Origin: Klebsiella phage KPP2018
Strand: one strand, 5' to 3'
Sequence record: NC_110934.1
Length of the DNA stretch: 64,000 nt
The translations under genes and the position numbers were made by a program. The notes under the pieces were generated by a model. The model searched no databases, had not been told where the DNA came from, and was given only the letters and a program-made list of their open reading frames with translations. Of this stretch, positions 1 through 31,403 are shown in pieces (position 1 is the stretch's first letter; every line of letters begins with the position of its first letter).

Positions 1-64
1 TCTTGTTCTGTCATGTTGCTCCCCCAGTTCAATTTATGTAATTATTATACAGAACTTTTGGAAA

Positions 65-352
65 CTAAGCAACTACATTTTTTAAGAATTTGATGCCTTT
101 CTTTCTCTTCTTATATTTCCACGTTAATGGATTCTGTCGATTATGAACACTTGAGATCTTTGTCTCATCAAAGTTCTTCAATATCATGTAATCACAAGAT
201 AGTTGTTCTAATGGAATGTGATCACCGTCAAAAGCGTGTACATAAGGTTGTTGACTAGCACGATAATGATAGACTTTGTTAATTCTACGTTTCAGCGACT
301 TATCCGCGCAGTAAATAAAGAAGTTTTCAGGATGCATCAGCAGCTCCTTCAA
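65..352 (-). CDS. hypothetical protein (95 aa); duplicated at 29529-29816
   Basis: ORF track; directly upstream (in transcription) of it lie tRNA genes, probably co-transcribed. Confidence 0.5.
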   Translation of the reverse strand: MKELLMHPENFFIYCADKSLKRRINKVYHYRASQQPYVHAFDGDHIPLEQLSCDYMILKNFDETKISSVHNRQNPLTWKYKKRKKGIKFLKNVVA

Positions 353-354
353 TT

Positions 355-429
355 TGGTGCACCCTGTTCGTATCGAACGAACCTCTCAAGCTCTTCAGGC
401 AAGCGCTAATCCATCTCAGCTAAAGGTGC
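355..429 (-). tRNA. tRNA, anticodon loop CUGAAGA (GAA, Phe-like); anticodon stem has two U-U mismatches
   Basis: Reverse complement GCACCUU..GUUCG-UUCGAUA-CGAAC-AGGGUGC-A-CCA: 7-bp acceptor, D-arm, T-arm and encoded CCA. Confidence 0.65.
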
Positions 430-435
430 AAATTT

Positions 436-512
436 TGGCAGGGGTAAAGGTATTCGAAACCTTTTCATGGGTTTTGGAGGCCCATTTGCAACCTATGCGT
501 ACCCCAATTATT
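436..512 (-). ncRNA. tRNA-like remnant (T-arm AAGGU-UUCGAAU-ACCUU, U1-U72 mismatch, 9-nt anticodon loop); possibly pseudo-tRNA
   Basis: T-arm and acceptor recognisable but D-arm and anticodon arm non-canonical. Confidence 0.3.
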
Positions 513-515
513 AAT

Positions 516-590
516 TGGCACACCCAACGAGGATCGAACTCGTGTTCCCACTGTGAAAGAGTGGTGTCCTAACCGCTAGACGATAGGTGC
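516..590 (-). tRNA. tRNA-Glu (UUC)
   Basis: Revcomp has acceptor, D-arm GUCUAGCGGUUAGGAC, anticodon stem CCACU/AGUGG with loop CUUUCAC, T-arm GAGUUCGAUCCUCG, CCA. Confidence 0.85.
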
Positions 591-597
591 ATTAAAT

Positions 598-685
598 TGG
601 TGGGGAAAGATGGAGTCGAACCACCCGAGTCGCAATGACAACTGATTTACAGTCAGCTCTGCTACCACTTACAGAATATTTCCCC
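598..685 (-). tRNA. tRNA-Tyr (GUA), type II with long variable arm
   Basis: Revcomp GGGGAAA..; anticodon loop CUGUAAA; long variable arm; T-arm GGUUCGACUCC; acceptor GGGGAAA/UUUCCCC; CCA. Confidence 0.8.
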
Positions 686-815
686 ATATTTAGAAGTATT
701 CAAAAATTCTCATTTAAACACTTTTAAATATGTTTCCAAATTAGATAAATATTATATCAAGTTTTATAGTATTGGGCAAGTCAAATTTTAAAGAACTTGC
801 CCAATGCTGTATTAG

Positions 816-1091
816 TTAGTCGAACTTAGGAGTGACAGTTAAGGAGAACGGAAGTTCAAAAACTTCTTCGCCCTCATCACTAATAGTGATTACACGACCT
901 TTAAGTTCAGACATTGAAATATCAATATCAGCTTTTGCATCTGGAGCCATGCCAGCTTCAATACATTTAGCTTTAATTTCCGGCAGAAGTTCTACATCGT
1001 AGAAATAAAGCCATTCAATCTCACCTTCCCAGCCTTCCCAGGATTTACAGATTGCACTTTCAATACCAGCAGCTATAACACGATTTTGCAT
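816..1091 (-). CDS. hypothetical protein (91 aa)
   Basis: ORF track; preceded by conserved early promoter/leader; duplicated at 30280-30555. Confidence 0.55.
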   Translation of the reverse strand: MQNRVIAAGIESAICKSWEGWEGEIEWLYFYDVELLPEIKAKCIEAGMAPDAKADIDISMSELKGRVITISDEGEEVFELPFSLTVTPKFD

Positions 1092-1160
1092 TCGTTAACT
1101 CCTTCATCAATTTATATAACTATTATATCAGAAATTTAAAGCAAAAGGCAAGTACATTTT
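1092..1160 (-). promoter_or_regulatory. Conserved T5-type early promoter (-35 TTGCCT, 17 bp, -10 TATAAT) plus conserved leader/RBS
   Basis: Minus-strand reading: ..TTGCCTtttgctttaaatttctgaTATAATagttatataaattgatgaaggag; member of >20-copy element family. Confidence 0.7.
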
Positions 1161-1181
1161 TAAAAATTCTGTTTGGAGGAG

Positions 1182-1388
1182 CTAAACTCCAGATTCTTCA
1201 GCCAAGTCTAGACTAATAAGAGATATAGCCATAATTGCTGCTCCGTGCTCTTTTTCTCCAGTCTCTTTAGCTAGAGTTATAATATCAAGAAATTGCTTAT
1301 GAAAATCTGCAACCTCTTGAGTTATACCTGCCTCAGCAATCATGCCTTTAAGCATGAAGCGTTGTGCGGTAATTTCAGGATTAGCCAT
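1182..1388 (-). CDS. hypothetical protein (68 aa)
   Basis: ORF track; start ATG overlaps stop of upstream small ORF (ATGGCTAA coupling). Confidence 0.5.
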   Translation of the reverse strand: MANPEITAQRFMLKGMIAEAGITQEVADFHKQFLDIITLAKETGEKEHGAAIMAISLISLDLAEESGV

Positions 1389-1548
1389 GTTGTTTCTCCA
1401 GTTTCATCTTTAATAGTCTACAAATAAAATCAATGTCTTCATCCGTGCCTAGATCTCTATCTTCAAGGGTTGCCTTGAAGTTTTTAGTCAATTCCATGAG
1501 AATAACTTCTCTAGAACGACGTGTTGGCGGAGGTGGATGTCTATACAT
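1381..1548 (-). CDS. hypothetical small protein (55 aa, MYRHPPPPTRRSREVILMEL...)
   Basis: Unlisted (<60 aa) ORF; stop overlaps start of 1182-1388 gene, typical translational coupling. Confidence 0.4.
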   Translation of the reverse strand: MYRHPPPPTRRSREVILMELTKNFKATLEDRDLGTDEDIDFICRLLKMKLEKQHG

Positions 1549-1563
1549 CTTATTTCCTTAATT

Positions 1564-1640
1564 TGGTAGGGGTGGTGGGATTCGAACCCACAAAACCTGA
1601 ATTTTAAGTCCAGTACCTATGCCAATTCGATTACACCCCC
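1564..1640 (-). tRNA. tRNA, anticodon loop CUUAAAA (UAA, Leu-like) but type-I length with short variable loop
   Basis: Revcomp GGGGGUG..acceptor pairs with CACCCCU; anticodon stem CUGGA/UUCAG; T-arm GUGGG-UUCGAAU-CCCAC; A-CCA. Confidence 0.6.
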
Positions 1641-1647
1641 ATGTAGT

Positions 1648-1836
1648 TTAGTCAATTACTTTTGAGGCTTCAAGGTAGTCGATATAGTGTACGTTTTCTA
1701 CCGTAATCATATAATCCGCCACTTTATCCATAGCTTGGGCTTCAGAGGTAGCTCTGGCTAACCTATATCCTTTTCTATACTCATCCGGGTATTCTCTATC
1801 TTGAATAAACACAACATAAACTATATATAGATCCAT
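1648..1836 (-). CDS. hypothetical protein (62 aa)
   Basis: ORF track. Confidence 0.45.
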   Translation of the reverse strand: MDLYIVYVVFIQDREYPDEYRKGYRLARATSEAQAMDKVADYMITVENVHYIDYLEASKVID

Positions 1837-1855
1837 TTGTGACCTCTATTTAATT

Positions 1856-1933
1856 TGGTGGCTCCCCGAGGATTCGAACCTACGTACCTTCCGGTTATGA
1901 GCCGGGTGCTCATACCATATGAGCTTGAGAACC
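1856..1933 (-). tRNA. tRNA-Met/Ile2 (CAU)
   Basis: Revcomp GGUUCUC..; anticodon stem CCGG with loop CUCAUAA; T-loop UUCGAAU (T-stem has mismatches); acceptor with two G-U pairs; CCA. Confidence 0.65.
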
Positions 1934-1939
1934 AAAATC

Positions 1940-2028
1940 TGGCGGAAGAAGTGGGAATCGAACCCACAAGGCTATATTTCAAACCGACAGATTAGCAATC
2001 TGCTGCAATACCATTATGCTATTCTTCC
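1940..2028 (-). tRNA. tRNA-Ser (GCU), type II
   Basis: Revcomp GGAAGAA..; anticodon stem GCAGA/UCUGU, loop UUGCUAA; long variable arm; T-arm GUGGG-UUCGAUU-CCCAC; G-CCA. Confidence 0.8.
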
Positions 2029-2049
2029 GAATTTATAAGATATATTATA

Positions 2050-2571
2050 TTAGAAATTTAGCTTCATAGCAAGAAAATTTTTCAAGTTTTCGGTAGACAT
2101 CTCATCCACATCTACAGGAGAAACAAATCCATTTAATTGTCTAGCAAACTTTTCACCAGCAGGATCATTGTCCCCAACAGCTACCAATTTAAAAGGTAGT
2201 AATTTCAGTTGCTTTAATAACGCTTTTCCTGGAGAAGAACCCAACATTGCCAGGGCTGGATAACCCGCATTATGTAATGCAACTGCCTTAAATACAGATT
2301 CAGCAATCAATACTACTTTTTCATCCCCATTGAGAGTTTCTAGTCCCCATACACACTGTGTAGTAGAATAAGTAAAGTATTTAGCTTCAAAGGGGCACTT
2401 ACCATGACCTTTTGGAGCAGAAGGATTATAAGTTTGATAGCCCCTCAACATTCCAGAGAAATCATACAACGGGACTGTTAGCCACCCTTCCGGACTTAAC
2501 CAGCAATGATATTTATCTGTATCAAATCCTCTAGATAAGAGGTGCTGTGTTAGCTCATCAACATTCATATT
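2050..2571 (-). CDS. Toprim-domain protein (DnaG-primase-like Toprim: E in IAES, DxD in AVGDNDPAG)
   Basis: ORF track 2050-2619; real start is Met17 (MNVDELTQ..) because the conserved TATAAT+ATAAATTTGAGAGAGG leader ends there. Confidence 0.6.
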   Translation of the reverse strand, partial: NMNVDELTQHLLSRGFDTDKYHCWLSPEGWLTVPLYDFSGMLRGYQTYNPSAPKGHGKCPFEAKYFTYSTTQCVWGLETLNGDEKVVLIAESVFKAVALHNAGYPALAMLGSSPGKALLKQLKLLPFKLVAVGDNDPAGEKFARQLNGFVSPVDVDEMSTENLKNFLAMKLNF

Positions 2572-2663
2572 TGGTTCCTCTCTCAAATTTATAGATATAT
2601 TATACAGAGAATTTAGCATTCAAGCAATCAAATTTTTTAACTTTTTAGAGGAAAATCATAGGG

Positions 2664-2686
2664 CACTTAAGGGTAGCAGATAAGTG
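2664..2686 (+). promoter_or_regulatory. Inverted repeat CACTTAAG-N7-CTTAAGTG-like (CACTTA..TAAGTG), candidate operator upstream of Gly-rich gene promoter
   Basis: cacttaagggtagcagataagtg: 6-bp arms are reverse complements. Confidence 0.3.
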
Positions 2687-2744
2687 GTGAGGACCAAAAT
2701 TTGTGACCCCACTAAAAATCCAGGGGCAATTTTTAAAGACCCCT

Positions 2745-2772
2745 TGACATTTTCGCTGGGGTAGTGTAAAGT
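2745..2772 (+). promoter_or_regulatory. sigma70-like promoter (TTGACA, 16 bp, TAAAGT) for the Gly-rich protein operon; copy 1
   Basis: cccTTGACAttttcgctggggtagtgTAAAGTatatg; not of the conserved phage early-promoter class. Confidence 0.55.
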
Positions 2773-2834
2773 ATATGTTATGGATGAGTGATCAAAGAGA
2801 CACACATTTTCTATATACTAGGAGGTGTCAAAAA

Positions 2835-3611
2835 ATGACAGAAGAAGTAGCTAAGAGTCCTGAGACCGTCGCTAGCGTTGCAGCAGAACTGCACCGTCAC
2901 GAGGAATCAGATAAGAAAAAGTGGGAGAAGGTCAGAGCCTACGAAGAGAAACATCGTGAACACGATGAAGATGATGAAGAAGATGACGATGATGAGTATT
3001 GTCATAAATATGGAAAACGTAAAATGCAAGAACCAGTAAACGTATTCACTAGTGGCTTCCCTGGCCTAATGGGTGGTTACCCAGCAAACGCAGGTGCTTT
3101 CGGTGGTGAAGGTATGGGACTATTCGGAGCTATCCTAATCGGTGCTCTATTAACAGGCGGATTCGGTGGTTTTGGTGGATTTGGTGGACGTGGTGTAGTT
3201 GGTGAAGGTACCGCAGTTGATGCAGTACTTCAGAACCAAGATACCGCTAGTATTCTAGCAGCTATTAACACTACTCGTACAGAAGCTAACCAGGGTACTG
3301 GAGCTGTTTTAAGCGCAGTTAACAATGGTTTTAGCCAGACATCCCAAAACCAGAGCCGTGATACTCAGTCTGTACTAACTACGATCTATGGTACGGGTGC
3401 TAATCTGTCTAATCAAATCTGCCAGGAAACTCGCAACGTTATTCAGGGTCAGTTCGATCTTTCTCGCCAGATTGATCAATCTTTCGCAGCTAACCAGATA
3501 GCTCGTGCACAAGATAAGTTTGATTCTGCACAGATCGCTTTCCAGCAGACTTTACAAACTAATAACCAGTTTGCCGCTGTTCAGGCTCAGATGTGTGCTA
3601 ACCAGTTATGA
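2835..3611 (+). pseudogene. Truncated copy (258 aa + 1 junction aa) of Gly-zipper/QN-rich membrane protein gene; truncated at repeat boundary 3605/3606
   Basis: RBS AGGAGG 9 nt before ATG 2835; identical to first 257 codons of the 331-aa gene at 32299-33291, then reads L-stop across the junction. Confidence 0.75.
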
Positions 3612-3711
3612 TAATGATCAAATCGATCAGCAAACGGCGGGCTTTTTGCTGGACACGCTGAAAGCGGAACACTGCACTAAAAAGCAAGCGGCAAAAATTA
3701 TTTTAATGTAA
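3607..3711 (+). pseudogene. Orphan C-terminal gene fragment (..YDNDQIDQQTAGFLLDTLKAEHCTKKQAAKIILM*) lacking N-terminus and start
   Basis: Open frame begins exactly at the repeat junction, ends at TAA 3709-3711, followed by hairpin GGGGCG-aaagtaa-CGCCCC. Confidence 0.5.
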
Positions 3712-3759
3712 TTAATAAAGGGGCGAAAGTAACGCCCCACTAACTAGGGAGTATTACAA

Positions 3760-3909
3760 ATGATTATTTTTCGAGCTATTCTGGCGGGTATCTTGGGCGC
3801 TATTTTATCTTTGTTTGCAATAGCTTTCGATGTTCACGCGGTTATTATCGGCGCGGGTATCGCTGCATTTTCTTATCTGCTGGGCTGCATGACTAGTAAA
3901 GGAGAATAA
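3760..3909 (+). CDS. small hydrophobic membrane protein (49 aa, MIIFRAILAGILGAILSLFAIAF...)
   Basis: Unlisted ORF; two predicted TM stretches; GC-richer than surrounding phage DNA. Confidence 0.5.
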   Translation: MIIFRAILAGILGAILSLFAIAFDVHAVIIGAGIAAFSYLLGCMTSKGE

Positions 3910-3911
3910 AA

Positions 3912-4124
3912 ATGATCCGCAACGTTTCTCTTGCACGTTCGAAAGGCTTTAAGCTGGTGGATGCTAACACGTTCGAGCGGGAAGATTGTAAAATCGAATA
4001 TGTAGCACGTAACAAAAATGCCTTTCGTGTTACTGAGAAAAAATTTGATAAGCGCGGCAACGTGATCGCTGAAACGGTTAAGCACTTTGCCACCTTTTAC
4101 GCTGCGTTTCGTGGGGTACTATGA
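3912..4124 (+). CDS. hypothetical protein (70 aa)
   Basis: ORF track; RBS GGAG 8 nt upstream; start 3 nt after previous stop. Confidence 0.55.
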   Translation: MIRNVSLARSKGFKLVDANTFEREDCKIEYVARNKNAFRVTEKKFDKRGNVIAETVKHFATFYAAFRGVL

Positions 4125-4261
4125 AAAGCGTTATCGTTATTGCCCTTGCAATGGTTGGCGGTTTTACCGCCACCTTATTCAAAAATGACCCCATTTCATT
4201 GGGGATCTTTATGTTATTATCTGGCTATCTAATTGGGAGGTTGTCAAATGGTTATTTATGA
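4121..4261 (+). CDS. small membrane protein (46 aa, MKSVIVIALAMVGGFTATLF...)
   Basis: Unlisted ORF; ATGA overlap with upstream stop; hydrophobic. Confidence 0.5.
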   Translation: MKSVIVIALAMVGGFTATLFKNDPISLGIFMLLSGYLIGRLSNGYL

Positions 4262-4592
4262 GGGCAATCGTTTTGTTGCTAATTGCCGTCCTGCATTATT
4301 AGCAAACTACTTAAATCAGCTTTCCCCAGCTTATAAGGGTGTTATTAATATTTATGAGGGCAAGGCGCATTATAAAATCAATGCGGTCGTTGCCCGTGAA
4401 CTAGCATTTCAATTTTTGACCTTTGCATCTTGTGATATTCAGGTCATGGGGGAAGCATTAATTGCAGAAAATGAAGATGATTTTATTAATATTTTCCGCA
4501 AGATATGCACCGAGCGGCTGATAATGAAAGGCGCGTATATTCAATCCACGGCTGATAGTATTGAAACAGCGTTTCGAAAGGTGGCGCAATGA
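4248..4592 (+). CDS. hypothetical protein (114 aa)
   Basis: ORF track 4233-4592; likely start ATG 4248 after RBS GGGAGG. Confidence 0.55.
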   Translation: MVIYEGNRFVANCRPALLANYLNQLSPAYKGVINIYEGKAHYKINAVVARELAFQFLTFASCDIQVMGEALIAENEDDFINIFRKICTERLIMKGAYIQSTADSIETAFRKVAQ

Positions 4593-4747
4593 AAAAGTTT
4601 TTAATAGCTGGCATGTTTCCGTTGTTGCCTTATGTAATTTGCTGGGCTTTATACGCTCATGGCGCTAGTGTTCCCGCTGTGGCTTCATTTGGTGTATCGG
4701 CGGGCTTTCTAGCTGGACTATTAGCAAGCGTATACTTACGCAAATAA
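4589..4747 (+). CDS. small membrane protein (52 aa, MKKFLIAGMFPLLPYVICWALYAHG...)
   Basis: Unlisted ORF; ATGA overlap with stop of previous gene. Confidence 0.5.
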   Translation: MKKFLIAGMFPLLPYVICWALYAHGASVPAVASFGVSAGFLAGLLASVYLRK

Positions 4748-4766
4748 TTAATAATGGGGCGTTATT

Positions 4767-4961
4767 ATGAGCAATAAAATTGTTGTAACCAAAATCAGTA
4801 CAATGGTTGATGTTTTTTACGTGCCCGATACGCCGGAAAACCGACAAGCGGTCGAGCGTGGAGAATATGATAAAGTGATTTATGATCACGATGGTTATTA
4901 TCAGCATTTAGTGGATTCCTACGGGGAGGAGGAGAAGATCACGCATCGACTACCAGACTAA
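4767..4961 (+). CDS. hypothetical protein (64 aa)
   Basis: ORF track; last gene before the non-coding repeat block. Confidence 0.5.
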   Translation: MSNKIVVTKISTMVDVFYVPDTPENRQAVERGEYDKVIYDHDGYYQHLVDSYGEEEKITHRLPD

Positions 4962-5000
4962 TAATCACGGGGCGCAACTATCAGGAAGTGCCCCCAATTC

Positions 5001-5025
5001 TCAAATGAGAATGATTCTCATTTGA
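5001..5025. promoter_or_regulatory. 25-bp palindrome TCAAATGAGAATGATTCTCATTTGA (Fur-box-like GATAATGATAATCATTATC relative)
   Basis: Perfect inverted repeat; half-site AATGAGAAT recurs in the downstream iterons. Confidence 0.4.
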
Positions 5026-5217
5026 CCGCGCCCGCGATGGTTAGCCTGCTAATGGTTAGGGTGTTACGTGTCGCCTTGTGTGATCGTTAGCGTGCTAACT
5101 AATTTTCAAGCCTCCTTCAATTTTGCCCTTGTTTTAGTATCCCCAACAAAATTAAACGCGTTAGAATGCGTTTGAGAGCGTTTTAACGCTATATTAGAAT
5201 TATTCACTGCGTAGGAA

Positions 5218-5237
5218 TACTGTATATTTATACAGTA
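5218..5237. promoter_or_regulatory. LexA (SOS) box TACTGTATATTTATACAGTA
   Basis: Perfect CTGT-N8-ACAG palindrome with AT-rich spacer matching E. coli LexA consensus. Confidence 0.55.
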
Positions 5238-5246
5238 GGATAAGCT

Positions 5247-5255
5247 GTGGATAAG
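5247..5255 (-). promoter_or_regulatory. DnaA box (TTATCCACA on minus strand)
   Basis: tgtggataa; second identical box at 5319-5327 and a 1-mismatch box (tgttgataa) at 5258-5266. Confidence 0.5.
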
Positions 5256-5318
5256 TCTGTTGATAACGCTTCAAAACGGCTAGAATTTTGTCAAGTCAAA
5301 TCGTGCTGTTAGTAAGTC

Positions 5319-5327
5319 TGTGGATAA
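5319..5327 (-). promoter_or_regulatory. DnaA box (TTATCCACA on minus strand), within repeated 13-mer AGTCTGTGGATAA
   Basis: Exact 9-mer consensus. Confidence 0.5.
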
Positions 5328-5350
5328 CTTAAATAACAGTGTTTCTCACT

Positions 5351-5530
5351 TCCGTTCTTAAATGAGAATCATTATCATTTGCATTTCACTATCTAACTAA
5401 TAATCATTCCGCTTTTTAAATGAGAATCATTCCGCTTTTTAAATGAGATTGATTCTCATTCCGCTTTTTAAATGCGAATTATTATCATTCTCATTCCGCT
5501 TTTTAAATGAGAATGATTCTTATTATCATT
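5351..5530. repeat. Iteron array A: 4-5 direct repeats of ~23-33 bp core CATTCCGCTTTTTAAATGAGAAT(CATT)
   Basis: cattccgctttttaaatgagaat repeated head-to-tail at 5405, 5428, 5455, 5488 with Fur-box-like AATCATTATCATT tails. Confidence 0.7.
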
Positions 5531-5538
5531 CGTATTTA

Positions 5539-5564
5539 GCGCAGGGCAATTGCCCTGCGCTTTT
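5539..5564. terminator. 22-bp perfect GC-rich palindrome GCGCAGGGCAATTGCCCTGCGC followed by TTTT (intrinsic-terminator-like or protein-binding site)
   Basis: Perfect dyad with 9-bp GC-rich arms and U-tract. Confidence 0.5.
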
Positions 5565-5787
5565 GTGCAAATCCGACATTGCTCCACGGGTGTTACGTGC
5601 GGGCGTGTATGTGCGAATCCGACAATCTTTGGTAGTGTGCAAATCCGACCCGAAAAATTTTTATAGTGTGCAAATCCGACAATGAATTTTCCCAAAAACT
5701 CCAGCAATCTCGAACTGCGTTCGAATCCTGTGGGGTATGTGCAAATTCGACACGGTTTTTCTAGGATTAAGATGTGCAAATCCGACA
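5565..5787. repeat. Iteron array B: six direct copies of GTGCAAATCCGACA (14 bp; variants GTGCGAATCCGACA, GTGCAAATTCGACA)
   Basis: Copies at 5565, 5611, 5637, 5668, 5739, 5774, irregular 26-71 bp spacing. Confidence 0.75.
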
Positions 5788-6098
5788 AGATTTTTGTGAC
5801 TTCGATTGGAGGGTGTGTGATTGTGTGGGTTTGGGGAGAAGATGAGAGAGCGAGAGAAAATAAGGGAAGAAACTGGAGGAGCAGCATGGGTGGCGTGTAA
5901 CGCCTGATTTGCTGCGTTTTTGGGGAAGAGTTGAGAAGATTTGGGTTAATTGGGCTTGGGGCGAGATAAAGTAAAATTTTATTAGCAAAATGGGGCAAAA
6001 TAGCTTGACAAGTGAAAATTCCTGTGGCTCTAAAAACTCAGGCAATCATGGGCCTTCGGCCCGAAATAATGCTGCTATTTTCAGGAGATTATATGTGC

Positions 6099-6165
6099 CT
6101 AAAAACTTAGGCATTTGTGCAAATCCGACCATAAATTTCTAGAAACACAATGTGCAAATCCGACA
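6099..6165. repeat. Palindrome TGCCTAAAAACTTAGGCA plus two further GTGCAAATCCGAC(A/C) iterons (6117, 6152)
   Basis: Same 14-mer as array B, 35 bp apart. Confidence 0.65.
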
Positions 6166-6204
6166 GTAATTTCTGGAAATGTGTTTTCAAAAAATGTCTC
6201 CTAG

Positions 6205-6295
6205 AAATAACCGCCCTCCCTATAACCGCCCTGTATTAAACCGCCTAGTATATGTTCCTAGAAACTTAGGAGAACCGCCCACTAGAAGCGTGATA
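6205..6295. repeat. Four direct repeats of AACCGCC(C) at ~13-22 bp spacing interleaved with CTAGAAA motifs
   Basis: ataaccgccctcc / ataaccgccctgt / taaaccgcctagt / gaaccgcccact. Confidence 0.5.
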
Positions 6296-6622
6296 TCTCG
6301 TGGGTATTTCGTGAGAACTCTGGAGTTTCTAGGAAAGTGTATGTGATCCTAGAGATGGGGAGCGGCAACAGGTGTATCATCTTGAACACAGATATTGCCT
6401 TTAAATATATTCGTATGTTTTAAAAGTAAATGATCCCCCATTTCATGTGAGATTCCTCGTGGGGCGCGTGAGTATTACGGAAGAACTCTAATATTGGCCC
6501 GCGCTAAGACTAGCCGCTATAGCACAGACGCAAATAGAGTTGTAATAATCATCGCCCCTAGAGTTCACAATAAGAGTTATTGTTAATCTATGAGATTATT
6601 ATAACATACATTTTTAATAACG

Positions 6623-7378
6623 TCAAGAAGATTTTGCTAACGTTTTTGGATTCTTCCTGGCTTTGAGATATATCCCTTTAGATGCTAGGTAAATATATGT
6701 TGCTAGGAATGAAGATTCTGATCCCGATTCCTCATAGGTTAACGTACCTCTAGGGTATTTATTTGTTTTAGGAGCATAGTTAAGCACAGCCGCAGTTAAT
6801 GATCCTAATCCTAGAACATCCGCAAGACGTCTAAAGGTATTCTCTTCATCATGAATAGCATAAAGAATGTTATCTTCAATATCCGTTAATGGAATCTTAC
6901 GGATATGAGATACTGCAATCCGTGCTATCATAGCTCCAATTGTTTTATTAATATCCTCGAAAGAAACACTCTCCATATATTTTAGAGGGGGAAGATGGTC
7001 ATATTTACATTTCTTAGGCGGAATAAGAAGTTGTTCAGGGTAAGCCTCTAGTGCCTGACGAACGTTTGCTTCTGGATATGTTGGCAAAGGTTCATCTATA
7101 ATAACATGTAAAAAGTTAGCTCTATGCCCTTTAGCAGTTGGATCTAAAGACTTGAGTACTTTATTCATATCCACATATGAATATGCTAGGTCTGCTTGAG
7201 GAGCATTAATATCAAACTTAATCTTCTTGCCCTCCCATTTAGCAGGGAACATCTCACAAACAAACATTACTGCATGTTTGACGTCTGGCTCTAGCTCTGA
7301 TAGACATTTGTGATCTGCTGTTACTGCTAAAGCGAGTATATTCTTAAATTTATTAGCTTCTTCAATCATATATCCCAT
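6623..7378 (-). CDS. hypothetical early protein (251 aa)
   Basis: ORF track; first of a long minus-strand early gene block. Confidence 0.6.
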   Translation of the reverse strand: MGYMIEEANKFKNILALAVTADHKCLSELEPDVKHAVMFVCEMFPAKWEGKKIKFDINAPQADLAYSYVDMNKVLKSLDPTAKGHRANFLHVIIDEPLPTYPEANVRQALEAYPEQLLIPPKKCKYDHLPPLKYMESVSFEDINKTIGAMIARIAVSHIRKIPLTDIEDNILYAIHDEENTFRRLADVLGLGSLTAAVLNYAPKTNKYPRGTLTYEESGSESSFLATYIYLASKGIYLKARKNPKTLAKSS

Positions 7379-9017: not shown

Positions 9018-9453
9018 TATTTATCTCCCTTCTTAACTTTGAAAACTTATTATACCAAACTATATGATTATCGTCAATTACAAATTTATGATAACATGCT
9101 GGCACGGTATAAGTTCCATAATCCGTGACACGCTGCACAACCTTGTGTGCACACAGTCGACAACCATGCCCTTCTAAATGAGATCTAGCAGTTTGCCAGT
9201 AATACCCTTCATGATCTGGGCAATAGATCTCGACTTGCTGTTGCATTGTTTTATAATTTACACGCTCATACCCAAAGAAAGCTCCATGAACTGCAACAGC
9301 TTTCTTGATAAATATAAGGTTTAGTGCTTCTTGCTGAAAGTCGGGATGTAGCTGCTTAATCTTAGTTCTATTAATAGATCCATCCGATTTGATAAACCTA
9401 TTTATTGGGAAGTTGTTAGCTTCCTCGATTAGTAATTCATTTACTTTTTCTCT
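9010..9453 (-). CDS. Cys/His-rich putative zinc-binding protein (possible HNH-like nuclease; ..YCPDHEGYYWQTARSHLEGHGCRLCAH..)
   Basis: ORF track 9010-9558; shortened to Met36 to avoid 100-nt overlap with next gene. Confidence 0.4.
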   Translation of the reverse strand, partial: REKVNELLIEEANNFPINRFIKSDGSINRTKIKQLHPDFQQEALNLIFIKKAVAVHGAFFGYERVNYKTMQQQVEIYCPDHEGYYWQTARSHLEGHGCRLCAHKVVQRVTDYGTYTVPACYHKFVIDDNHIVWYNKFSKLRREINSE

Positions 9454-9457
9454 CATA

Positions 9458-9682
9458 TTAGATATTCTCACACCTAAGGTAGAAACATTCGTAAGCATCA
9501 CCAGTAAACTCTTTACCTTGTAGTATACATTTAGCCTGGTCTTCTGGTACTCCGGCATCTAATAATTGTTGTTTACTTGGCTTTTCAGCGAATACCTTTA
9601 CAAAATATTCACCATCCTGATTATACTCATTTATATCTCTAGTAAGGACATATACTTGCATTTGAAATTCCTTGAAACACAA
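9458..9682 (-). CDS. hypothetical protein (74 aa)
   Basis: ORF track. Confidence 0.45.
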   Translation of the reverse strand: MCFKEFQMQVYVLTRDINEYNQDGEYFVKVFAEKPSKQQLLDAGVPEDQAKCILQGKEFTGDAYECFYLRCENI

Positions 9683-9715
9683 AAGGCCAGAACAATTAAG
9701 TCCTGGCCTCTAGAA

Positions 9716-10153
9716 TTAATGAAGTTGTTTACCACTTCTTAACATAGTGGCCGTTTCCATAAGATTTAACGTTGTATCACGCTTTTTGATTTGTTTGTCG
9801 AGTTCATCGGTGCGTTTGCCAATGTAAGCGTTAATAGCCATATTCATAGCTGAGGCGAGATCTTCTTTGGTTATCTCTTCATCATCTAAGGCTAATTTAG
9901 CCAAAGAATCGAACGCAATAGAAAGTCCTATAAGATCTGAGGTTTCACTAGCTAAGATGGGATCAATATTATCTATTGTTACTTCTAACATAGAGTTAAC
10001 AATATCTTCTCCGTCTACTAGACCAGATTCAATATTACTCTCCCATTCCTTCATCTGCTCCAGCAATGGATTTTTCTTTTCTGTCATGGTAGAGATTTCC
10101 TGTGTCAGTTGGTAAGAAGGACGATTGAGCTTTAGGTGGATGTTGTTTAGCAA
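9716..10153 (-). CDS. hypothetical acidic protein (145 aa; true start probably internal Met)
   Basis: ORF track; overlaps next ORF. Confidence 0.5.
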   Translation of the reverse strand: MLNNIHLKLNRPSYQLTQEISTMTEKKNPLLEQMKEWESNIESGLVDGEDIVNSMLEVTIDNIDPILASETSDLIGLSIAFDSLAKLALDDEEITKEDLASAMNMAINAYIGKRTDELDKQIKKRDTTLNLMETATMLRSGKQLH

Positions 10154-10792: not shown

Positions 10793-11119
10793 TCATGGGA
10801 GACGCCATACGTAATTAGCTGTCTGTAGGATCTTAGGTGTGTCATTATGATACATTACTACAGACTTTGGTGAATAACTATCAGCTAGTTCTTTACGAAT
10901 CATCTTACATTCTTCACCAGTATCGATATTTTTAACTATCACTTTCATATTAAGAGGTGTTAATACAGAAAGTGGTTTCCAAGAGTCCTCAATTTCAATT
11001 CCTACCTTTTTCTCGATTAACATGAGAACTTCTAGTGTATCATCTGGAATACTAATATTATTATTCACAAACTGTAATATCTCATGTAAGGTATTTAATT
11101 CATTAAAATTAAGCTTCAT
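10793..11119 (-). CDS. hypothetical protein (108 aa)
   Basis: ORF track. Confidence 0.55.
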   Translation of the reverse strand: MKLNFNELNTLHEILQFVNNNISIPDDTLEVLMLIEKKVGIEIEDSWKPLSVLTPLNMKVIVKNIDTGEECKMIRKELADSYSPKSVVMYHNDTPKILQTANYVWRLP

Positions 11120-11354: not shown

Positions 11355-11632
11355 TTTTTAATCTCCGTAATTATCTGTGCGCGCATTACTTTATTAGGTA
11401 ATTTTGTATTCCCAGCTATTGCTTCAATATTGTTTAGTTTTTCTTTTAGAATATCTGAGCGTCTTTGTGCTAGTTCAATATCTTGTTCTTGTTCTATTAA
11501 GCGGCAGTGAAGTCCACTATTAGTAGTAAGCATACTCTCCATATTTTTTCGCATGCTTACAATACCAATAATCCCACCAATCGCTGCTAGTGTCATAAGA
11601 ACTAGTAGTCCAATGAGAATTTCAGTTAACAT
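11351..11632 (-). CDS. membrane protein (93 aa) with coiled coil
   Basis: ORF track; N-terminal TM. Confidence 0.5.
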   Translation of the reverse strand: MLTEILIGLLVLMTLAAIGGIIGIVSMRKNMESMLTTNSGLHCRLIEQEQDIELAQRRSDILKEKLNNIEAIAGNTKLPNKVMRAQIITEIKK

Positions 11633-18034: not shown

Positions 18035-18787
18035 TTATCCAACTAGTGGTTCTAGCTCTAAGTCACAGAAGTTATAAACTTCTAGTTTAAGGTTATTGAT
18101 ACCATCGAATTTATTAACTAATTCGTGAGTAATATATTTTGCAGGAATACCACTTTCAGATGGATGATCTGATTTAATAGTGAACTTCTGCTCAGCGGGT
18201 ACTACATTTACTATCAAAGAATCCATATCTAAATGGTTTGTTTCTCTGAGTAGCTCTCCTTCATTGGGGAATCTAACATCTGTTATTACGGCGACGTCTG
18301 GGTCGTCTTTAGCGATGGATTGCTCCAGAATTATGAGCCAAATGCGTTCATGCACCAGCTGCCTTCCTAGCTCTGTTCCTACGAGCTGTAACATTTTTCT
18401 CGGAGAAATAAATAAACTATAAAGACCATCTTCTTTACTCCCTGAGATAAGTTGTTGAGGATTAAGATATTTTTCCTCAAAAATAGGCCAAACGTACGAG
18501 AAGTCTTCAAACTTATCGATACCATACTTAAACCACACATCCCTGGCTCGCTCCAATTGAGATTGTGTGACCGTAAACCATTGGTCAATCTCTTTTCCCC
18601 TGCGCTCTCCTAGAAACTCTGGAGTTACACCGAGGATTACGGATGCAAGTTCATAAACGGGCTTAGCAAAACTGTAACGACAGGGTAAACACATTGGATA
18701 CGTGTCATTACACCAATCAATAATTAATTTTGCAACGGTATCTTTTCCCGAACCAGCTTCACCATGTAAACCGACTAATACTGACAT
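18035..18787 (-). CDS. deoxynucleoside monophosphate kinase
   Basis: P-loop GEAGSGKDT at N-terminus; T5 dNMP kinase-like. Confidence 0.7.
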   Translation of the reverse strand: MSVLVGLHGEAGSGKDTVAKLIIDWCNDTYPMCLPCRYSFAKPVYELASVILGVTPEFLGERRGKEIDQWFTVTQSQLERARDVWFKYGIDKFEDFSYVWPIFEEKYLNPQQLISGSKEDGLYSLFISPRKMLQLVGTELGRQLVHERIWLIILEQSIAKDDPDVAVITDVRFPNEGELLRETNHLDMDSLIVNVVPAEQKFTIKSDHPSESGIPAKYITHELVNKFDGINNLKLEVYNFCDLELEPLVG

Positions 18788-29459: not shown

Positions 29460-29528
29460 ATTTATCTTGTTCTGTCATGTTGCTCCCCCAGTTCAATTTA
29501 TGTAATTATTATACAGAACTTTTGGAAA

Positions 29529-29816
29529 CTAAGCAACTACATTTTTTAAGAATTTGATGCCTTTCTTTCTCTTCTTATATTTCCACGTTAATGGATTCTG
29601 TCGATTATGAACACTTGAGATCTTTGTCTCATCAAAGTTCTTCAATATCATGTAATCACAAGATAGTTGTTCTAATGGAATGTGATCACCGTCAAAAGCG
29701 TGTACATAAGGTTGTTGACTAGCACGATAATGATAGACTTTGTTAATTCTACGTTTCAGCGACTTATCCGCGCAGTAAATAAAGAAGTTTTCAGGATGCA
29801 TCAGCAGCTCCTTCAA
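29529..29816 (-). CDS. hypothetical protein (95 aa), repeat copy 2 of 65-352
   Basis: Identical to copy 1. Confidence 0.5.
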   Translation of the reverse strand: MKELLMHPENFFIYCADKSLKRRINKVYHYRASQQPYVHAFDGDHIPLEQLSCDYMILKNFDETKISSVHNRQNPLTWKYKKRKKGIKFLKNVVA

Positions 29817-29818
29817 TT

Positions 29819-29893
29819 TGGTGCACCCTGTTCGTATCGAACGAACCTCTCAAGCTCTTCAGGCAAGCGCTAATCCATCTCAGCTAAAGGTGC
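29819..29893 (-). tRNA. tRNA (GAA, Phe-like), copy 2
   Basis: Identical to 355-429. Confidence 0.65.
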
Positions 29894-29979
29894 AAATTTT
29901 GGCAGGGGTAAAGGTATTCGAAACCTTTTCATGGGTTTTGGAGGCCCATTTGCAACCTATGCGTACCCCAATTATTAAT

Positions 29980-30054
29980 TGGCACACCCAACGAGGATCG
30001 AACTCGTGTTCCCACTGTGAAAGAGTGGTGTCCTAACCGCTAGACGATAGGTGC
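29980..30054 (-). tRNA. tRNA-Glu (UUC), copy 2
   Basis: Identical to 516-590. Confidence 0.85.
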
Positions 30055-30061
30055 ATTAAAT

Positions 30062-30149
30062 TGGTGGGGAAAGATGGAGTCGAACCACCCGAGTCGCAAT
30101 GACAACTGATTTACAGTCAGCTCTGCTACCACTTACAGAATATTTCCCC
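30062..30149 (-). tRNA. tRNA-Tyr (GUA), copy 2
   Basis: Identical to 598-685. Confidence 0.8.
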
Positions 30150-30279
30150 ATATTTAGAAGTATTCAAAAATTCTCATTTAAACACTTTTAAATATGTTTC
30201 CAAATTAGATAAATATTATATCAAGTTTTATAGTATTGGGCAAGTCAAATTTTAAAGAACTTGCCCAATGCTGTATTAG

Positions 30280-30555
30280 TTAGTCGAACTTAGGAGTGAC
30301 AGTTAAGGAGAACGGAAGTTCAAAAACTTCTTCGCCCTCATCACTAATAGTGATTACACGACCTTTAAGTTCAGACATTGAAATATCAATATCAGCTTTT
30401 GCATCTGGAGCCATGCCAGCTTCAATACATTTAGCTTTAATTTCCGGCAGAAGTTCTACATCGTAGAAATAAAGCCATTCAATCTCACCTTCCCAGCCTT
30501 CCCAGGATTTACAGATTGCACTTTCAATACCAGCAGCTATAACACGATTTTGCAT
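30280..30555 (-). CDS. hypothetical protein (91 aa), copy 2
   Basis: Identical to 816-1091. Confidence 0.55.
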   Translation of the reverse strand: MQNRVIAAGIESAICKSWEGWEGEIEWLYFYDVELLPEIKAKCIEAGMAPDAKADIDISMSELKGRVITISDEGEEVFELPFSLTVTPKFD

Positions 30556-30645
30556 TCGTTAACTCCTTCATCAATTTATATAACTATTATATCAGAAATT
30601 TAAAGCAAAAGGCAAGTACATTTTTAAAAATTCTGTTTGGAGGAG

Positions 30646-30852
30646 CTAAACTCCAGATTCTTCAGCCAAGTCTAGACTAATAAGAGATATAGCCATAATT
30701 GCTGCTCCGTGCTCTTTTTCTCCAGTCTCTTTAGCTAGAGTTATAATATCAAGAAATTGCTTATGAAAATCTGCAACCTCTTGAGTTATACCTGCCTCAG
30801 CAATCATGCCTTTAAGCATGAAGCGTTGTGCGGTAATTTCAGGATTAGCCAT
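30646..30852 (-). CDS. hypothetical protein (68 aa), copy 2
   Basis: Identical to 1182-1388. Confidence 0.5.
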   Translation of the reverse strand: MANPEITAQRFMLKGMIAEAGITQEVADFHKQFLDIITLAKETGEKEHGAAIMAISLISLDLAEESGV

Positions 30853-31027
30853 GTTGTTTCTCCAGTTTCATCTTTAATAGTCTACAAATAAAATCAATGT
30901 CTTCATCCGTGCCTAGATCTCTATCTTCAAGGGTTGCCTTGAAGTTTTTAGTCAATTCCATGAGAATAACTTCTCTAGAACGACGTGTTGGCGGAGGTGG
31001 ATGTCTATACATCTTATTTCCTTAATT

Positions 31028-31104
31028 TGGTAGGGGTGGTGGGATTCGAACCCACAAAACCTGAATTTTAAGTCCAGTACCTATGCCAATTCGATTACAC
31101 CCCC
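31028..31104 (-). tRNA. tRNA (UAA, Leu-like, type-I length), copy 2
   Basis: Identical to 1564-1640. Confidence 0.6.
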
Positions 31105-31111
31105 ATGTAGT

Positions 31112-31300
31112 TTAGTCAATTACTTTTGAGGCTTCAAGGTAGTCGATATAGTGTACGTTTTCTACCGTAATCATATAATCCGCCACTTTATCCATAGCTT
31201 GGGCTTCAGAGGTAGCTCTGGCTAACCTATATCCTTTTCTATACTCATCCGGGTATTCTCTATCTTGAATAAACACAACATAAACTATATATAGATCCAT
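31112..31300 (-). CDS. hypothetical protein (62 aa), copy 2
   Basis: Identical to 1648-1836. Confidence 0.45.
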   Translation of the reverse strand: MDLYIVYVVFIQDREYPDEYRKGYRLARATSEAQAMDKVADYMITVENVHYIDYLEASKVID

Positions 31301-31319
31301 TTGTGACCTCTATTTAATT

Positions 31320-31397: not shown

Positions 31398-31403
31398 AAA
31401 ATC

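What the first reader, a model, noticed from the sequence alone, without database searches (positions are those of the whole stretch)
4980..6620. About 1.6 kb of non-coding, repeat-dense DNA resembling a replication origin / injection-stop-signal region
No credible ORFs exist here, but the region is densely structured.
- A 25-bp Fur-box-like palindrome (5001-5025).
- A perfect LexA box (5218-5237).
- Two exact DnaA boxes within a repeated 13-mer (5247-5255 and 5319-5327), plus a one-mismatch box.
- An array of 4-5 iterons of ~23 bp (5351-5530).
- A 22-bp perfect GC palindrome with a T-tract (5539-5564).
- Eight copies of GTGCAAATCCGACA (5565-6165).
- A GGGCC-TTCG-GGCCC hairpin (~6048).
- Four AACCGCC(C) repeats with CTAGAAA motifs (6205-6295).

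This is the grammar of a theta-type plasmid or phage origin: DnaA boxes, iterons and AT-rich DNA. It also matches descriptions of the repeat-rich injection-stop-signal block at the end of the T5 terminal repeat. Host-factor sites for DnaA, LexA and possibly Fur inside a lytic phage imply host-protein-dependent control of DNA entry or replication.
Basis: partly seen in the sequence, partly recalled or inferred. Interest (0 to 1): 0.8.

Follow-up and report, generated by a model that had tools for sequence, protein, structure and literature searches.

The report
T5-type injection-stop region, host-operator-rich
This non-coding block is the already-described "injection stop signal" at the end of the terminal repeat of a T5-like phage, not a replication origin. 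Its conserved core looks like binding sites for the host proteins LexA, DnaA and possibly Fur, which gives testable candidates for the unsolved two-step DNA injection.

Summary
**Observation: confirmed.** Every listed element is present; only three coordinates need small corrections.

**What it is.** The window is a Tequintavirus. Region 4980-6620 is the orthologue of T5 "Repeat Region 3", the injection stop signal (iss). T5 GenBank records already annotate every element. By homology the left terminal repeat ends at about 6030. The GC palindrome carries the T5 7.9% nick motif.

**Origin reading: not supported.**
- The repeats are irregularly spaced.
- No initiator gene is adjacent.
- The GC-skew turn coincides with convergent transcription.
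- Published T5 origins lie mid-genome.

- The LexA-type box matches 19 of 20 consensus positions, better than E. coli recA, sulA or umuDC.
- The module "LexA-type box, 9-11 nt, DnaA-box pair" recurs in every A1/A2-encoding Demerecviridae lineage sampled (Escherichia, Salmonella, Klebsiella, Serratia, Pectobacterium, Proteus, Vibrio), although the flanks have diverged.
- All four Fur-consensus matches of at least 15/19 in the 64 kb lie in 5358-5527, scoring like genuine Fur operators. They are less widely conserved.
- The GTGCAAATCCGAC repeats change with phage lineage, which suggests a phage-encoded binder.

**Literature.** No paper I could read links LexA or Fur to the iss; the DnaA idea is Davison's. 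Function is untested.

**Caveat.** Window 1-3605 is an exact copy of 29465-33069, so upstream context is unreliable.

The parts
5001..5025 (.). Perfect 12-1-12 palindrome TCAAATGAGAAT-G-ATTCTCATTTGA. It is Fur-box-like and is the first copy of the AATGAGAAT/ATTCTCATT motif.
   Evidence: I15. It matches the Fur consensus at 14/19. A near-identical AATGAGAATGAGTCTCATTTGACCGCGC occurs in Vibrio phage ValDsh2.
5086..5106 (+). Position homologous to the T5 'putative rho-independent terminator' (palindrome C). In this phage it is only a weak hairpin followed by TAATTTTC.
   Evidence: T5 9275-9296 maps to window 5091-5106. The fold is -4.4 kcal/mol and is not significant.
5218..5237 (.). LexA-type operator (SOS box) TACTGTATATTTATACAGTA. 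It corresponds to T5 'palindrome D'.
   Evidence: It matches the LexA consensus at 19/20; E. coli K-12 recA scores 16, sulA 17 and umuDC 18. It is unique in 64 kb. T5 annotates it only as palindrome D. It is conserved across Demerecviridae. Mean identity across 17 other iss sequences is 0.96, against 0.77 for the region overall.
5246..5266 (-). DnaA-box pair 1: TGTGGATAA-GTC-TGTTGATAA (T5 direct repeat B copy 1, inside inverted repeat D').
   Evidence: Davison describes such pairs with 3-bp gaps. Mean identity 0.95.
5307..5327 (-). DnaA-box pair 2: TGTTAGTAA-GTC-TGTGGATAA (T5 direct repeat B copy 2, inside inverted repeat C'). The first box is degenerate in this phage.
   Evidence: (D7).
5346..5531 (.). 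Array of AT-rich repeats and palindromes (T5 direct repeat C copies and palindromes E-I). It contains Fur-consensus-like 19-mers at 5358, 5364, 5474 and 5509. The published T5 shear point for first-step DNA (9618) maps to about 5512.
   Evidence: All four sites at 15/19 or better in the 64 kb lie here. In 1000 dinucleotide shuffles the mean count was 0.011 and the maximum 1. The mapping to about 5512 is by eye: T5 palindrome I AATGAGATTGATTCTCATTA corresponds to window 5506-5525.
5538..5565 (+). 24-nt perfect GC-rich palindrome plus TTTT. It corresponds to T5 palindrome J and carries the 7.9% major nick motif CCCTGCGC at 5553-5560. It is terminator-like for rightward transcripts.
   Evidence: (I16).
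5565..5786 (+). Six same-strand copies of GTGCAAATCCGAC (T5 direct repeat D copies 1-6), all inside the terminal repeat.
   Evidence: (D2). Identity is 0.87-0.99 for five of the six copies and 0.62 for the fifth. The repeat sequence differs in the Vibrio phage, where it is GAGTGCGGATTCTATGTG.
5797..5990 (+). G-rich, C-poor tract (73 G against 15 C), with a 47-nt C-free run at 5804-5850. By homology it contains the T5 direct repeat A copies.
   Evidence: (GC skew 0.35-0.375).
6030..6031 (.). Inferred right boundary of the left terminal repeat.
   Evidence: The T5 LTR end (10219) and the phage MM-1 LTR end (10407) both map to window 6030. Flanks 5961-6063 have identity 0.91-0.96. The boundary cannot be measured in this window because the right repeat is absent.
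6051..6063 (.). Conserved GGGCC-TTC-GGCCC hairpin about 20 nt outside the repeat boundary.
   Evidence: (invariant in 4 phages). The fold z-score alone is not significant.
6117..6164 (+). Two further GTGCAAATCCGAC copies (T5 direct repeat D copies 7-8), outside the terminal repeat.
6209..6279 (+). Four AACCGCC(C) repeats interspersed with CTAGAAA.
   Evidence: 4 of the 7 AACCGCC in 64 kb lie here, and CTAGRA occurs 13 times in the region against 115 in the whole window. AACCGCCCT repeats also occur in the Klebsiella phage.
6598..6626 (-). Predicted sigma-70 promoter TTGACG-17-(TG)TATAAT. It starts at the stop codon of the first early gene and points leftward into the non-coding block.
   Evidence: 11/12 matches. 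The hexamer positions are retained in T5 as TTGACA-17-TATCAT, read from the alignment. It is a prediction only, and its transcript is unknown.

Best explanation
The block is the boundary between first-step-transfer and second-step-transfer DNA of a T5-like phage. This is the cis-acting 'injection stop signal' region (T5 Repeat Region 3), which straddles the right end of the left terminal repeat.

**Shown**
- It is orthologous to the annotated T5 region, element by element.
- Its most conserved core is a LexA-type operator followed by two DnaA-box pairs. An array of Fur-box-like palindromes comes next, then the 7.9% nick and terminator palindrome, then GTGCAAATCCGAC repeats that bracket the repeat boundary.

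**Inferred mechanism**
- The pause needs no new protein synthesis. I therefore infer that the last 300 bp or so to enter act as a landing pad for proteins already present in the host: DnaA, as Davison proposed, plus LexA and probably Fur.
- These would assemble a nucleoprotein complex at the cytoplasmic mouth of the entry channel and hold the DNA.
- The downstream 0.5-0.8 kb (the GTGCAAATCCGAC repeats and the repeat end) would then sit in the envelope and tail.
- The GTGCAAATCCGAC repeats change with phage lineage. They are more likely bound by a phage protein, for release or for end formation.

**Confidence by step**
- Identity as the iss region: about 0.97.
- LexA binding to the box: about 0.85.
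- A host-protein complex being the actual cause of the pause: about 0.3.
For: **Identity**
- 94.6% identity to phage Th1 over the full block, and 454 T5-like records with a match.
- T5 records place the 'injection stop signal', the LTR end and the major nick in the aligned gap.
- AY587007 names palindromes C-J and repeats A-D there.
- Davison describes the same architecture in 25 phages.

**LexA-type box**
- 19/20 to the consensus, against 16-18 for the recA, sulA and umuDC operators taken from K-12.
- It is present next to DnaA boxes in lineages retrieved through A2 protein similarity or by accession, not through the motif. These are Proteus Stubb (beside its terminal-repeat end), Vibrio D308, Vibrio Athena and Pectobacterium My1.
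- It is also present in lineages retrieved by DNA similarity: Vibrio ValDsh2, a Klebsiella phage and Serratia Slocum.
- In a scan anchored only on the DnaA pair, the iss copy is CTGT-N8-ACAG or the natural variant CCAG, with a variable AT-rich spacer.

**Fur-like boxes**
- Five sites score 14-16/19, two of them 6 nt apart.
- Genuine fhuA, fepA-fes, fepD-entS and fepB-entC operators score 13-16.

**Lineage-specific repeats**
-.

**Position and state of the field**
- The published shear point falls in the last Fur-like repeat.
- Reported tail lengths are 160-250 nm. At 0.34 nm per bp that is about 470-735 bp; this conversion is my inference.
- The literature states that the mechanism is unresolved and that host components are suspected.
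Against: - No binding or genetic data exist for any of these sites.
- The box does not overlap a conserved promoter, so LexA would not be acting as an ordinary repressor.
- The Fur-like motif has G where Fur-family boxes usually have T (TGAGAAT against TGATAAT). It is absent at 15/19 or better from Slocum, D308 and Athena.
- A2 is conserved in all these phages (about 40% identity in the distant ones). A conserved phage protein could therefore explain the conserved palindromes equally well.
- It is unclear physically how proteins bound inside the cell would stop further DNA entry.
- From general knowledge, T5 plates on recA1 laboratory strains. LexA cleavage therefore cannot be required for release.
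- All sampled hosts are Gammaproteobacteria and share one LexA motif. No co-variation test with the host motif is possible.
Confidence: 0.55

Rival explanations
1. The conserved palindromes and repeats, including the LexA-like and Fur-like ones, are bound by phage-encoded pre-early proteins such as A2 or the A1-A2 complex. They would serve restart of transfer, cutting or circularisation. On this view the resemblance to host operators is coincidence or mimicry.
For: - A1 and A2 occur in every lineage that carries the module.
- A2 is annotated as a DNA-binding protein required for transfer.
- The GTGCAAATCCGAC repeats change with phage lineage, as expected for a phage-encoded binder.
- Davison proposes that A1/A2 act on sites near the iss.
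Against: - The pause happens before any phage protein is made, as stated. Phage proteins can explain release but not arrest.
- A2 is only about 40% identical in Vibrio and Proteus phages, yet the box keeps the exact host LexA consensus, with spacer drift typical of LexA sites.
- No FST-region protein tested, including T5 A2, has a recognisable LexA-type or other DNA-binding Pfam domain.
Confidence: 0.25
2. The block is a replication origin of the theta or iteron type, or oriC-like: DnaA boxes plus iterons plus AT-rich DNA.
For: - DnaA-box pairs lie next to a 65-70% AT repeat array.
- Davison notes the resemblance to oriC.
- The cumulative GC skew peaks at the right edge of the block.
Against: - Repeat spacing is irregular: 23, 23, 29, 35, 35.
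- No initiator gene is nearby.
- The skew turn coincides with convergent gene orientation.
- T5 origins are reported near the genome centre, and replication genes are not available during first-step transfer.
- The same module also occurs in inverted orientation about 3 kb upstream in relatives. That is unlike a single origin.
Confidence: 0.05
3. The arrest is caused by DNA structure alone. Cruciforms, bends or hairpins formed by the many palindromes, or the 7.9% nick, would jam the DNA in the portal, tail or channel without sequence-specific proteins.
For: - The density of perfect palindromes is very high.
- The palindrome J hairpin is exceptionally stable and carries the nick motif.
- Recent literature lists secondary structure as one possibility.
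Against: - Complete genome ejection occurs in vitro into FhuA proteoliposomes (Davison's text), so host cytoplasmic or membrane components seem to be needed.
- In the LexA-type box the CTGT/ACAG half-sites are kept while the spacer loses symmetry in several lineages. This fits protein recognition better than hairpin pairing.
- From memory, unverified here: nick-deficient T5 mutants still show two-step transfer.
Confidence: 0.1
4. The block is mainly a transcription and genome-end boundary. It would hold terminators and roadblocks that separate the rightward pre-early operon from the leftward early operon, plus signals that define the terminal-repeat end during packaging. The pause would then be a by-product.
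For: - The flanking genes converge on the block.
- A terminator is annotated at the homologous T5 position, and palindrome J plus its T-run is terminator-like.
- By homology the repeat boundary lies at 6030, inside the most conserved right-hand segment and bracketed by the GTGCAAATCCGAC repeats.
- From established knowledge: DnaA bound to a DnaA box can block RNA polymerase, as at asnC.
Against: - A boundary would not need about 1.6 kb, nor a module conserved from Vibrio to Escherichia phages.
- The module also occurs between divergent promoters about 3 kb upstream in relatives.
- This reading is compatible with the best explanation rather than exclusive of it.
Confidence: 0.2

Closest known systems
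Bacteriophage T5 injection stop signal / 'Repeat Region 3' (NC_005859 misc_feature 9140-10149; AY587007 palindromes C-J and direct repeats A-D; Heusterspreute et al. 1987, Wang et al. 2005, Davison 2015 and 2020)
   Same: - Same genomic position and same order of elements.
- About 85% nucleotide identity over the core.
- Same paired DnaA boxes, nick motif, repeat D array and repeat-end position.
   Different: - The stretch homologous to T5 palindrome C (a terminator) is replaced by a Fur-like palindrome plus a weak hairpin.
- Palindrome J is perfect, so the nick motif is on both strands.
- There are 8 rather than 9 repeat D copies.
- One DnaA box is degenerate.
- The upstream partner (inverted repeat C-spacer-D) cannot be assessed, because the window's upstream context is broken at 3605/3606.
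E. coli SOS operators (LexA boxes of recA, sulA, umuDC)
   Same: - Same 20-nt palindromic consensus with CTGT-N8-ACAG.
- The match is better than in the three host operators checked.
   Different: - It is not placed over a conserved promoter.
- It sits in a virulent phage, 10 nt from a DnaA-box pair.
- Its function is unknown.
DnaA-box clusters that are not origins (E. coli datA) and oriC
   Same: A cluster of DnaA boxes with a fixed geometry. Davison points out the oriC resemblance.
   Different: - Only two exact boxes plus two degenerate ones.
- No IHF consensus in the region.
- No evidence of titration or unwinding.
Fur operator clusters (fhuA, fepA-fes, fepD-entS, fepB-entC)
   Same: - Overlapping 19-mers score 14-16/19, two of them 6 nt apart. 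This is the pattern Chen et al. describe.
- The half-sites AATCATTCTC and CTTCTCATT are shared with the fhuA and fepB-entC operators.
   Different: - The dominant half-site is TGAGAAT rather than TGATAAT.
- No promoter lies underneath.
- The motif is not conserved in all lineages.
Iteron-type theta origins (plasmids, phage P1 or lambda ori)
   Same: Repeats plus DnaA boxes plus AT-rich DNA.
   Different: - Irregular repeat spacing.
- No initiator gene.
- Published T5 origins lie elsewhere.

Membership tests
T5-type injection stop signal region (Demerecviridae FST/SST boundary) | A non-coding block at the right end of the left terminal repeat, between rightward pre-early genes and leftward early genes. 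| tested here: met
   - ORF layout.
- LTR homology from 3606.
- T5 and MM-1 repeat ends map to 6030.
T5-type injection stop signal region (Demerecviridae FST/SST boundary) | Sequence homology to the annotated T5 iss. | tested here: met
   (85.2% identity over 611 nt to AY587007).
T5-type injection stop signal region (Demerecviridae FST/SST boundary) | Inverted repeat D'-spacer-C' carrying two DnaA-box pairs with 3-nt gaps. | tested here: met
   - Pairs at 5246-5266 and 5307-5327.
- The alignment to T5 has no gap across the spacer.
- Description.
T5-type injection stop signal region (Demerecviridae FST/SST boundary) | AT-rich repeat and palindrome array, palindrome J with the 7.9% nick motif, and a repeat D array spanning the repeat end. 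| tested here: met
   The nick itself is not testable from sequence.
T5-type injection stop signal region (Demerecviridae FST/SST boundary) | An inverted partner (C-spacer-D) about 3 kb upstream. Most members have it, but not all. | tested here: inconclusive
   - It is not found in the window.
- The native sequence upstream of 3606 is missing.
- The close relatives Th1 and MM-1 have it.
T5-type injection stop signal region (Demerecviridae FST/SST boundary) | Cis-acting arrest of DNA transfer at about 8% of the genome. | not testable with these tools
   Needs infection experiments. The literature says functional studies are lacking.
LexA operator (SOS box) | A 20-nt palindrome with CTGT-N8-ACAG and an AT-rich spacer. 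| tested here: met
   19/20 to the consensus. It is the only box of this kind in the region; three weaker CTGT-N8-ACAG matches lie elsewhere in the window.
LexA operator (SOS box) | Overlaps or closely follows a promoter that it represses. | tested here: not met
   The only upstream promoter-like site (5172-5200) has a -35 element that is not conserved in T5, MM-1 or Th1.
LexA operator (SOS box) | Bound by LexA. | not testable with these tools
   Needs EMSA, footprinting or ChIP.
Fur box cluster | Matches to GATAATGATAATCATTATC at the level of genuine operators, in overlapping clusters. | tested here: met
   Sites score 14-16/19, against 13-16 for K-12 operators. The sites at 5358 and 5364 are 6 nt apart.
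Fur box cluster | Canonical TGATAAT half-site, and conservation wherever the function is conserved. | tested here: inconclusive
   - TGAGAAT is the dominant half-site.
- The motif is present in ValDsh2, Stubb, My1 and the Klebsiella phages.
- It is absent at 15/19 or better from Slocum, D308 and Athena.
Iteron-type theta replication origin | Regularly phased iterons with an adjacent initiator gene. | tested here: not met
   Spacing is 23, 23, 29, 35, 35. Neighbouring ORFs have no Rep-like or any other Pfam or PHROG match.
Iteron-type theta replication origin | Initiation of replication at the site. | not testable with these tools
   The literature places T5 origins mid-genome.

The most novel reading that the evidence does not exclude
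The whole A1/A2-encoding family (Demerecviridae) keeps a consensus host SOS operator fused to DnaA-box pairs, with Fur-type boxes in many members, at the exact point where genome entry pauses.

The most novel reading not excluded is this. A virulent phage uses pre-existing global regulators of the host (LexA, DnaA, Fur) as the clamp, or as a host-state sensor, that sets the two-step injection pause. This would extend Davison's DnaA-only model.
Probability: 0.2. Interest if true: 0.75.

Novelty: already known. Interest (0 to 1): 0.4.

Why it matters
The region itself is ordinary for a T5-like phage. It has been annotated in T5 since 2005, and this copy is 94.6% identical to a deposited phage.

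How T5 stops and restarts DNA injection has been open since the 1960s. Papers from 2023 and 2026 still call it unresolved.

A near-perfect LexA operator sits next to the DnaA boxes in every lineage sampled, and Fur-like boxes occur in many. This adds two cheap, specific candidates to test. None of the T5 papers I could read mentions them.

Tried and rejected
- **Rfam scan of 4700-6900:** only sub-threshold hits (rliI 24 bits against a 45-bit cut-off), so no known RNA family.
- **IHF consensus WATCAANNNNTTR:** none in the region.
- **Sigma-54 motif:** none in the window.
- **LexA-controlled promoter:** the 5172-5200 site is not conserved at its -35 element, so I dropped it.
- **Coding capacity:** rejected.
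- **Retracted claim.** I first concluded that this phage lacks the upstream inverted partner of the module. I withdrew this after finding that window 1-3605 duplicates 29465-33069 and that LTR homology starts only at 3606.
- **LexA cleavage as the restart trigger:** rejected on general knowledge that T5 grows on recA1 strains.
- **Transcription-driven entry as in T7:** disfavoured on recalled literature that T5 injection needs no metabolic energy. I did not verify this here.
- **Retrieval of relatives via the T5.018 homologue in IMG/VR:** gave only 3 loci.
- **Papers not held:** Davison 2015 and the supplement of Chen et al. 2007. Heusterspreute 1987 and Wang 2005 were not among the search results and I did not look them up by id. 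An earlier mention of LexA or Fur therefore cannot be excluded.
Full report
**1. What the sequence is**

Region 4980-6620 matches 454 phage records, almost all Salmonella or Escherichia T5-like phages. The best match is Salmonella phage Th1, with 94.6% identity over the full length.

In T5 (NC_005859) the aligned stretch is the non-coding gap between the last rightward pre-early gene and the first leftward early gene. That gap carries three features:
- 'injection stop signal (iss)' at 9140-10149;
- the end of the left terminal repeat at 10219;
- a 'major DNA single-chain interruption' at 9748/9749.

By alignment these map to window 4953-5960, 6030 and 5560/5561. The annotated repeat end of phage MM-1 maps to the same position, 6030.

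The second T5 record (AY587007) names every sub-element: palindromes C-J, inverted repeats D' and C', direct repeats A, B, C and D, and the 7.9% nick. Davison's preprint describes the same 'Repeat Region 3' in 25 T5-like phages. The feature as a whole is therefore already known.

**2. Check of the observation**

All items are present. Three corrections apply:
- The first DnaA box is at 5246-5254.
- The GC palindrome is 24 nt long, at 5538-5561.
- The 'iterons' are irregularly spaced.

Chance is excluded for the main repeats. There are 8 copies of GTGCAAATCCGAC against 0.02 expected. Both exact DnaA boxes of the 64 kb are here.

The ORFs in the block have no significant family match, and the longest is not conserved as an ORF in T5.

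**3. The GC palindrome is the nick site**

T5's first three major nick features all read CCCTGCGC. The window has this motif at 5553-5560, inside the palindrome. It also has it at 18598-18605 and 34002-34009, in the same flanking sequence as T5 nicks 2 and 3.

As RNA the palindrome folds at -24.4 kcal/mol (z = -5.6) and is followed by UUUUG. It is therefore also terminator-like for rightward transcripts.

**4. The LexA-type box**

TACTGTATATTTATACAGTA matches 19 of 20 consensus positions. Operators read from the E. coli K-12 genome score 16 (recA), 17 (sulA) and 18 (umuDC). No other 20-mer in the window reaches 15. T5 annotates the site only as 'palindrome D'.

I then asked whether the box survives where the surrounding DNA has diverged.

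| How the locus was retrieved | Phages in which the box lies next to DnaA boxes |
|---|---|
| A2 protein similarity or accession (unbiased for the motif) | Proteus phage Stubb (box 213-228 nt from its terminal-repeat end), Vibrio phages D308 and Athena, Pectobacterium phage My1 |
| DNA similarity | Vibrio phage ValDsh2, a Klebsiella phage, Serratia phage Slocum |

Further points:
- Two metagenomic contigs with the module also encode A1 and A2.
- A2 is only about 40% identical in the distant lineages.
- Across lineages the spacer drifts (ATATTTAT, ATAAATAT, TTATTTAT, AATTATAT, ATGGATAT, ATATCCAT) while CTGT and ACAG stay fixed.
- In a scan anchored only on the DnaA pair, the only variant of the iss copy is CCAG. 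From memory, that half-site also occurs in genuine LexA operators.
- Among 18 close relatives the box and DnaA pair 1 are at 0.95-0.96 identity, against 0.77 for the region overall.

This pattern is what recognition by LexA predicts. It does not prove that LexA binds.

**5. Fur-like boxes**

Against GATAATGATAATCATTATC the region has sites scoring 14, 15, 15, 15 and 16 of 19. All four sites at 15 or better in the 64 kb lie in 5358-5527. In 1000 dinucleotide shuffles the mean count was 0.011.

Genuine operators taken from K-12 score as follows:

| Operator | Matches to the 19-nt consensus |
|---|---|
| fhuA | 14 |
| fepA-fes | 13 |
| fepD-entS | 16 |
| fepB-entC | 15 |

Similar palindromes occur in ValDsh2, Stubb, My1 and the Klebsiella-type phages, but not in Slocum, D308 or Athena. 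The dominant half-site, TGAGAAT, differs from canonical TGATAAT. The Fur reading is therefore weaker than the LexA reading.

**6. Repeats that change with the phage**

The GTGCAAATCCGAC repeat is the same in Escherichia, Salmonella, Klebsiella and Serratia phages. In Vibrio phage ValDsh2 it is replaced by GAGTGCGGATTCTATGTG at the equivalent place.

This suggests a phage-encoded binder. The copies bracket the repeat end, six inside and two outside.

**7. Origin hypothesis**

- Repeat spacing is irregular.
- No neighbouring ORF resembles an initiator.
- There is no IHF consensus.
- The cumulative GC-skew maximum coincides with the change of coding strand.
- Published origins are mid-genome.

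I rate this reading at about 0.05.

**8. Mechanism**

The pause occurs without phage protein synthesis, and A1 and A2 are needed for restart. The published shear point of first-step DNA, 9618 in AY587007, falls in T5 palindrome I (9612-9631). That corresponds by eye to window 5506-5525, about 5512. The LexA, DnaA and Fur-like cluster at 5218-5530 is therefore the last DNA to enter.

Tail lengths of 160-250 nm correspond to roughly 470-735 bp. This is my conversion. It would place the repeat D array and the repeat end in the tail and envelope during the pause.

The best-supported reading is a host-protein landing pad at the channel mouth, extending Davison's DnaA model. I give only about 0.3 to this being the cause of the arrest. 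The physical blocking step is unexplained, and a conserved phage protein remains a live alternative.

**9. Literature**

Searches for LexA, SOS or Fur together with T5, Tequintavirus or Demerecviridae found nothing relevant. The older key papers were not available to me.

**10. Caveat on the window**

Positions 1-3605 are an exact copy of 29465-33069. Relatives carry that segment only in the tRNA/primase early region, and none has window 1-5000 contiguous. Terminal-repeat homology begins exactly at 3606.

The upstream context of the finding is therefore unreliable, and the presence of the upstream partner repeat cannot be judged.

**Verdict**

The origin idea is not supported. The host-operator content is real, conserved and testable.

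Noticed in passing
window 1-3605 and 29465-33069: An exact 3605-bp direct duplication. Relatives have this segment only in the tRNA/primase early region, and none has window 1-5000 contiguous. Terminal-repeat homology starts exactly at 3606. This is probably a record or assembly artefact, or else a rearrangement. ORF 2775-3611 spans the junction and so looks chimeric.
   Followed up: partly
window 18598-18605 and 34002-34009: CCCTGCGC motifs in the same flanking sequence as T5 major nicks 2 (18.3%) and 3 (32.6%). Together with 5553-5560 they suggest the nick motif is conserved in this phage.
   Followed up: partly
window 5538-5561: In this phage and in Th1 the nick palindrome is perfect, so CCCTGCGC is present on both strands 15 nt apart. 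In T5 the other arm reads CCCTGCTC. Whether both strands are nicked is unknown.
   Followed up: no
L084 (Vibrio phage D308) about 10890-10910 and 11555-11575; L085 (Vibrio phage Athena) about 3660-3680: Sigma-54-type promoter motifs (TGGCAC-N5-TTGC or TGGCAT-N5-TTGC) lie directly beside LexA-type boxes in the first-step region of Vibrio T5-like phages. There are none in the window.
   Followed up: no
window 5165-5185; also T5, Slocum, My1 and Athena: A short motif AGRRCGTTTTA recurs about 35-45 nt upstream of the LexA-type box in several distant lineages. It is unexplained.
   Followed up: no
L001 (T5) 228-252; L060 197-221: Two overlapping Fur-consensus matches lie at the extreme left end of the genome, inside the 3' part of dmp (16/19 in T5, 18/19 and 17/19 in a Klebsiella-type contig). 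This is the first DNA to enter the cell. They are not seen in My1 or Stubb.
   Followed up: no
window 6598-6626 (-): A strong predicted sigma-70 promoter (TTGACG-17-TG-TATAAT) starts at the stop codon of the first early gene and points into the non-coding block. Its hexamers are retained in T5. No ORF lies downstream, so it would make a non-coding transcript.
   Followed up: partly
window 5797-5990: A G-rich, C-poor tract (73 G, 15 C) with a 47-nt C-free run at 5804-5850. This composition explains the long spurious minus-strand ORFs.
   Followed up: partly
window 4980-6620: CTAGRA occurs 13 times here against 115 in the whole 64 kb, about four times the window average.
   Followed up: no
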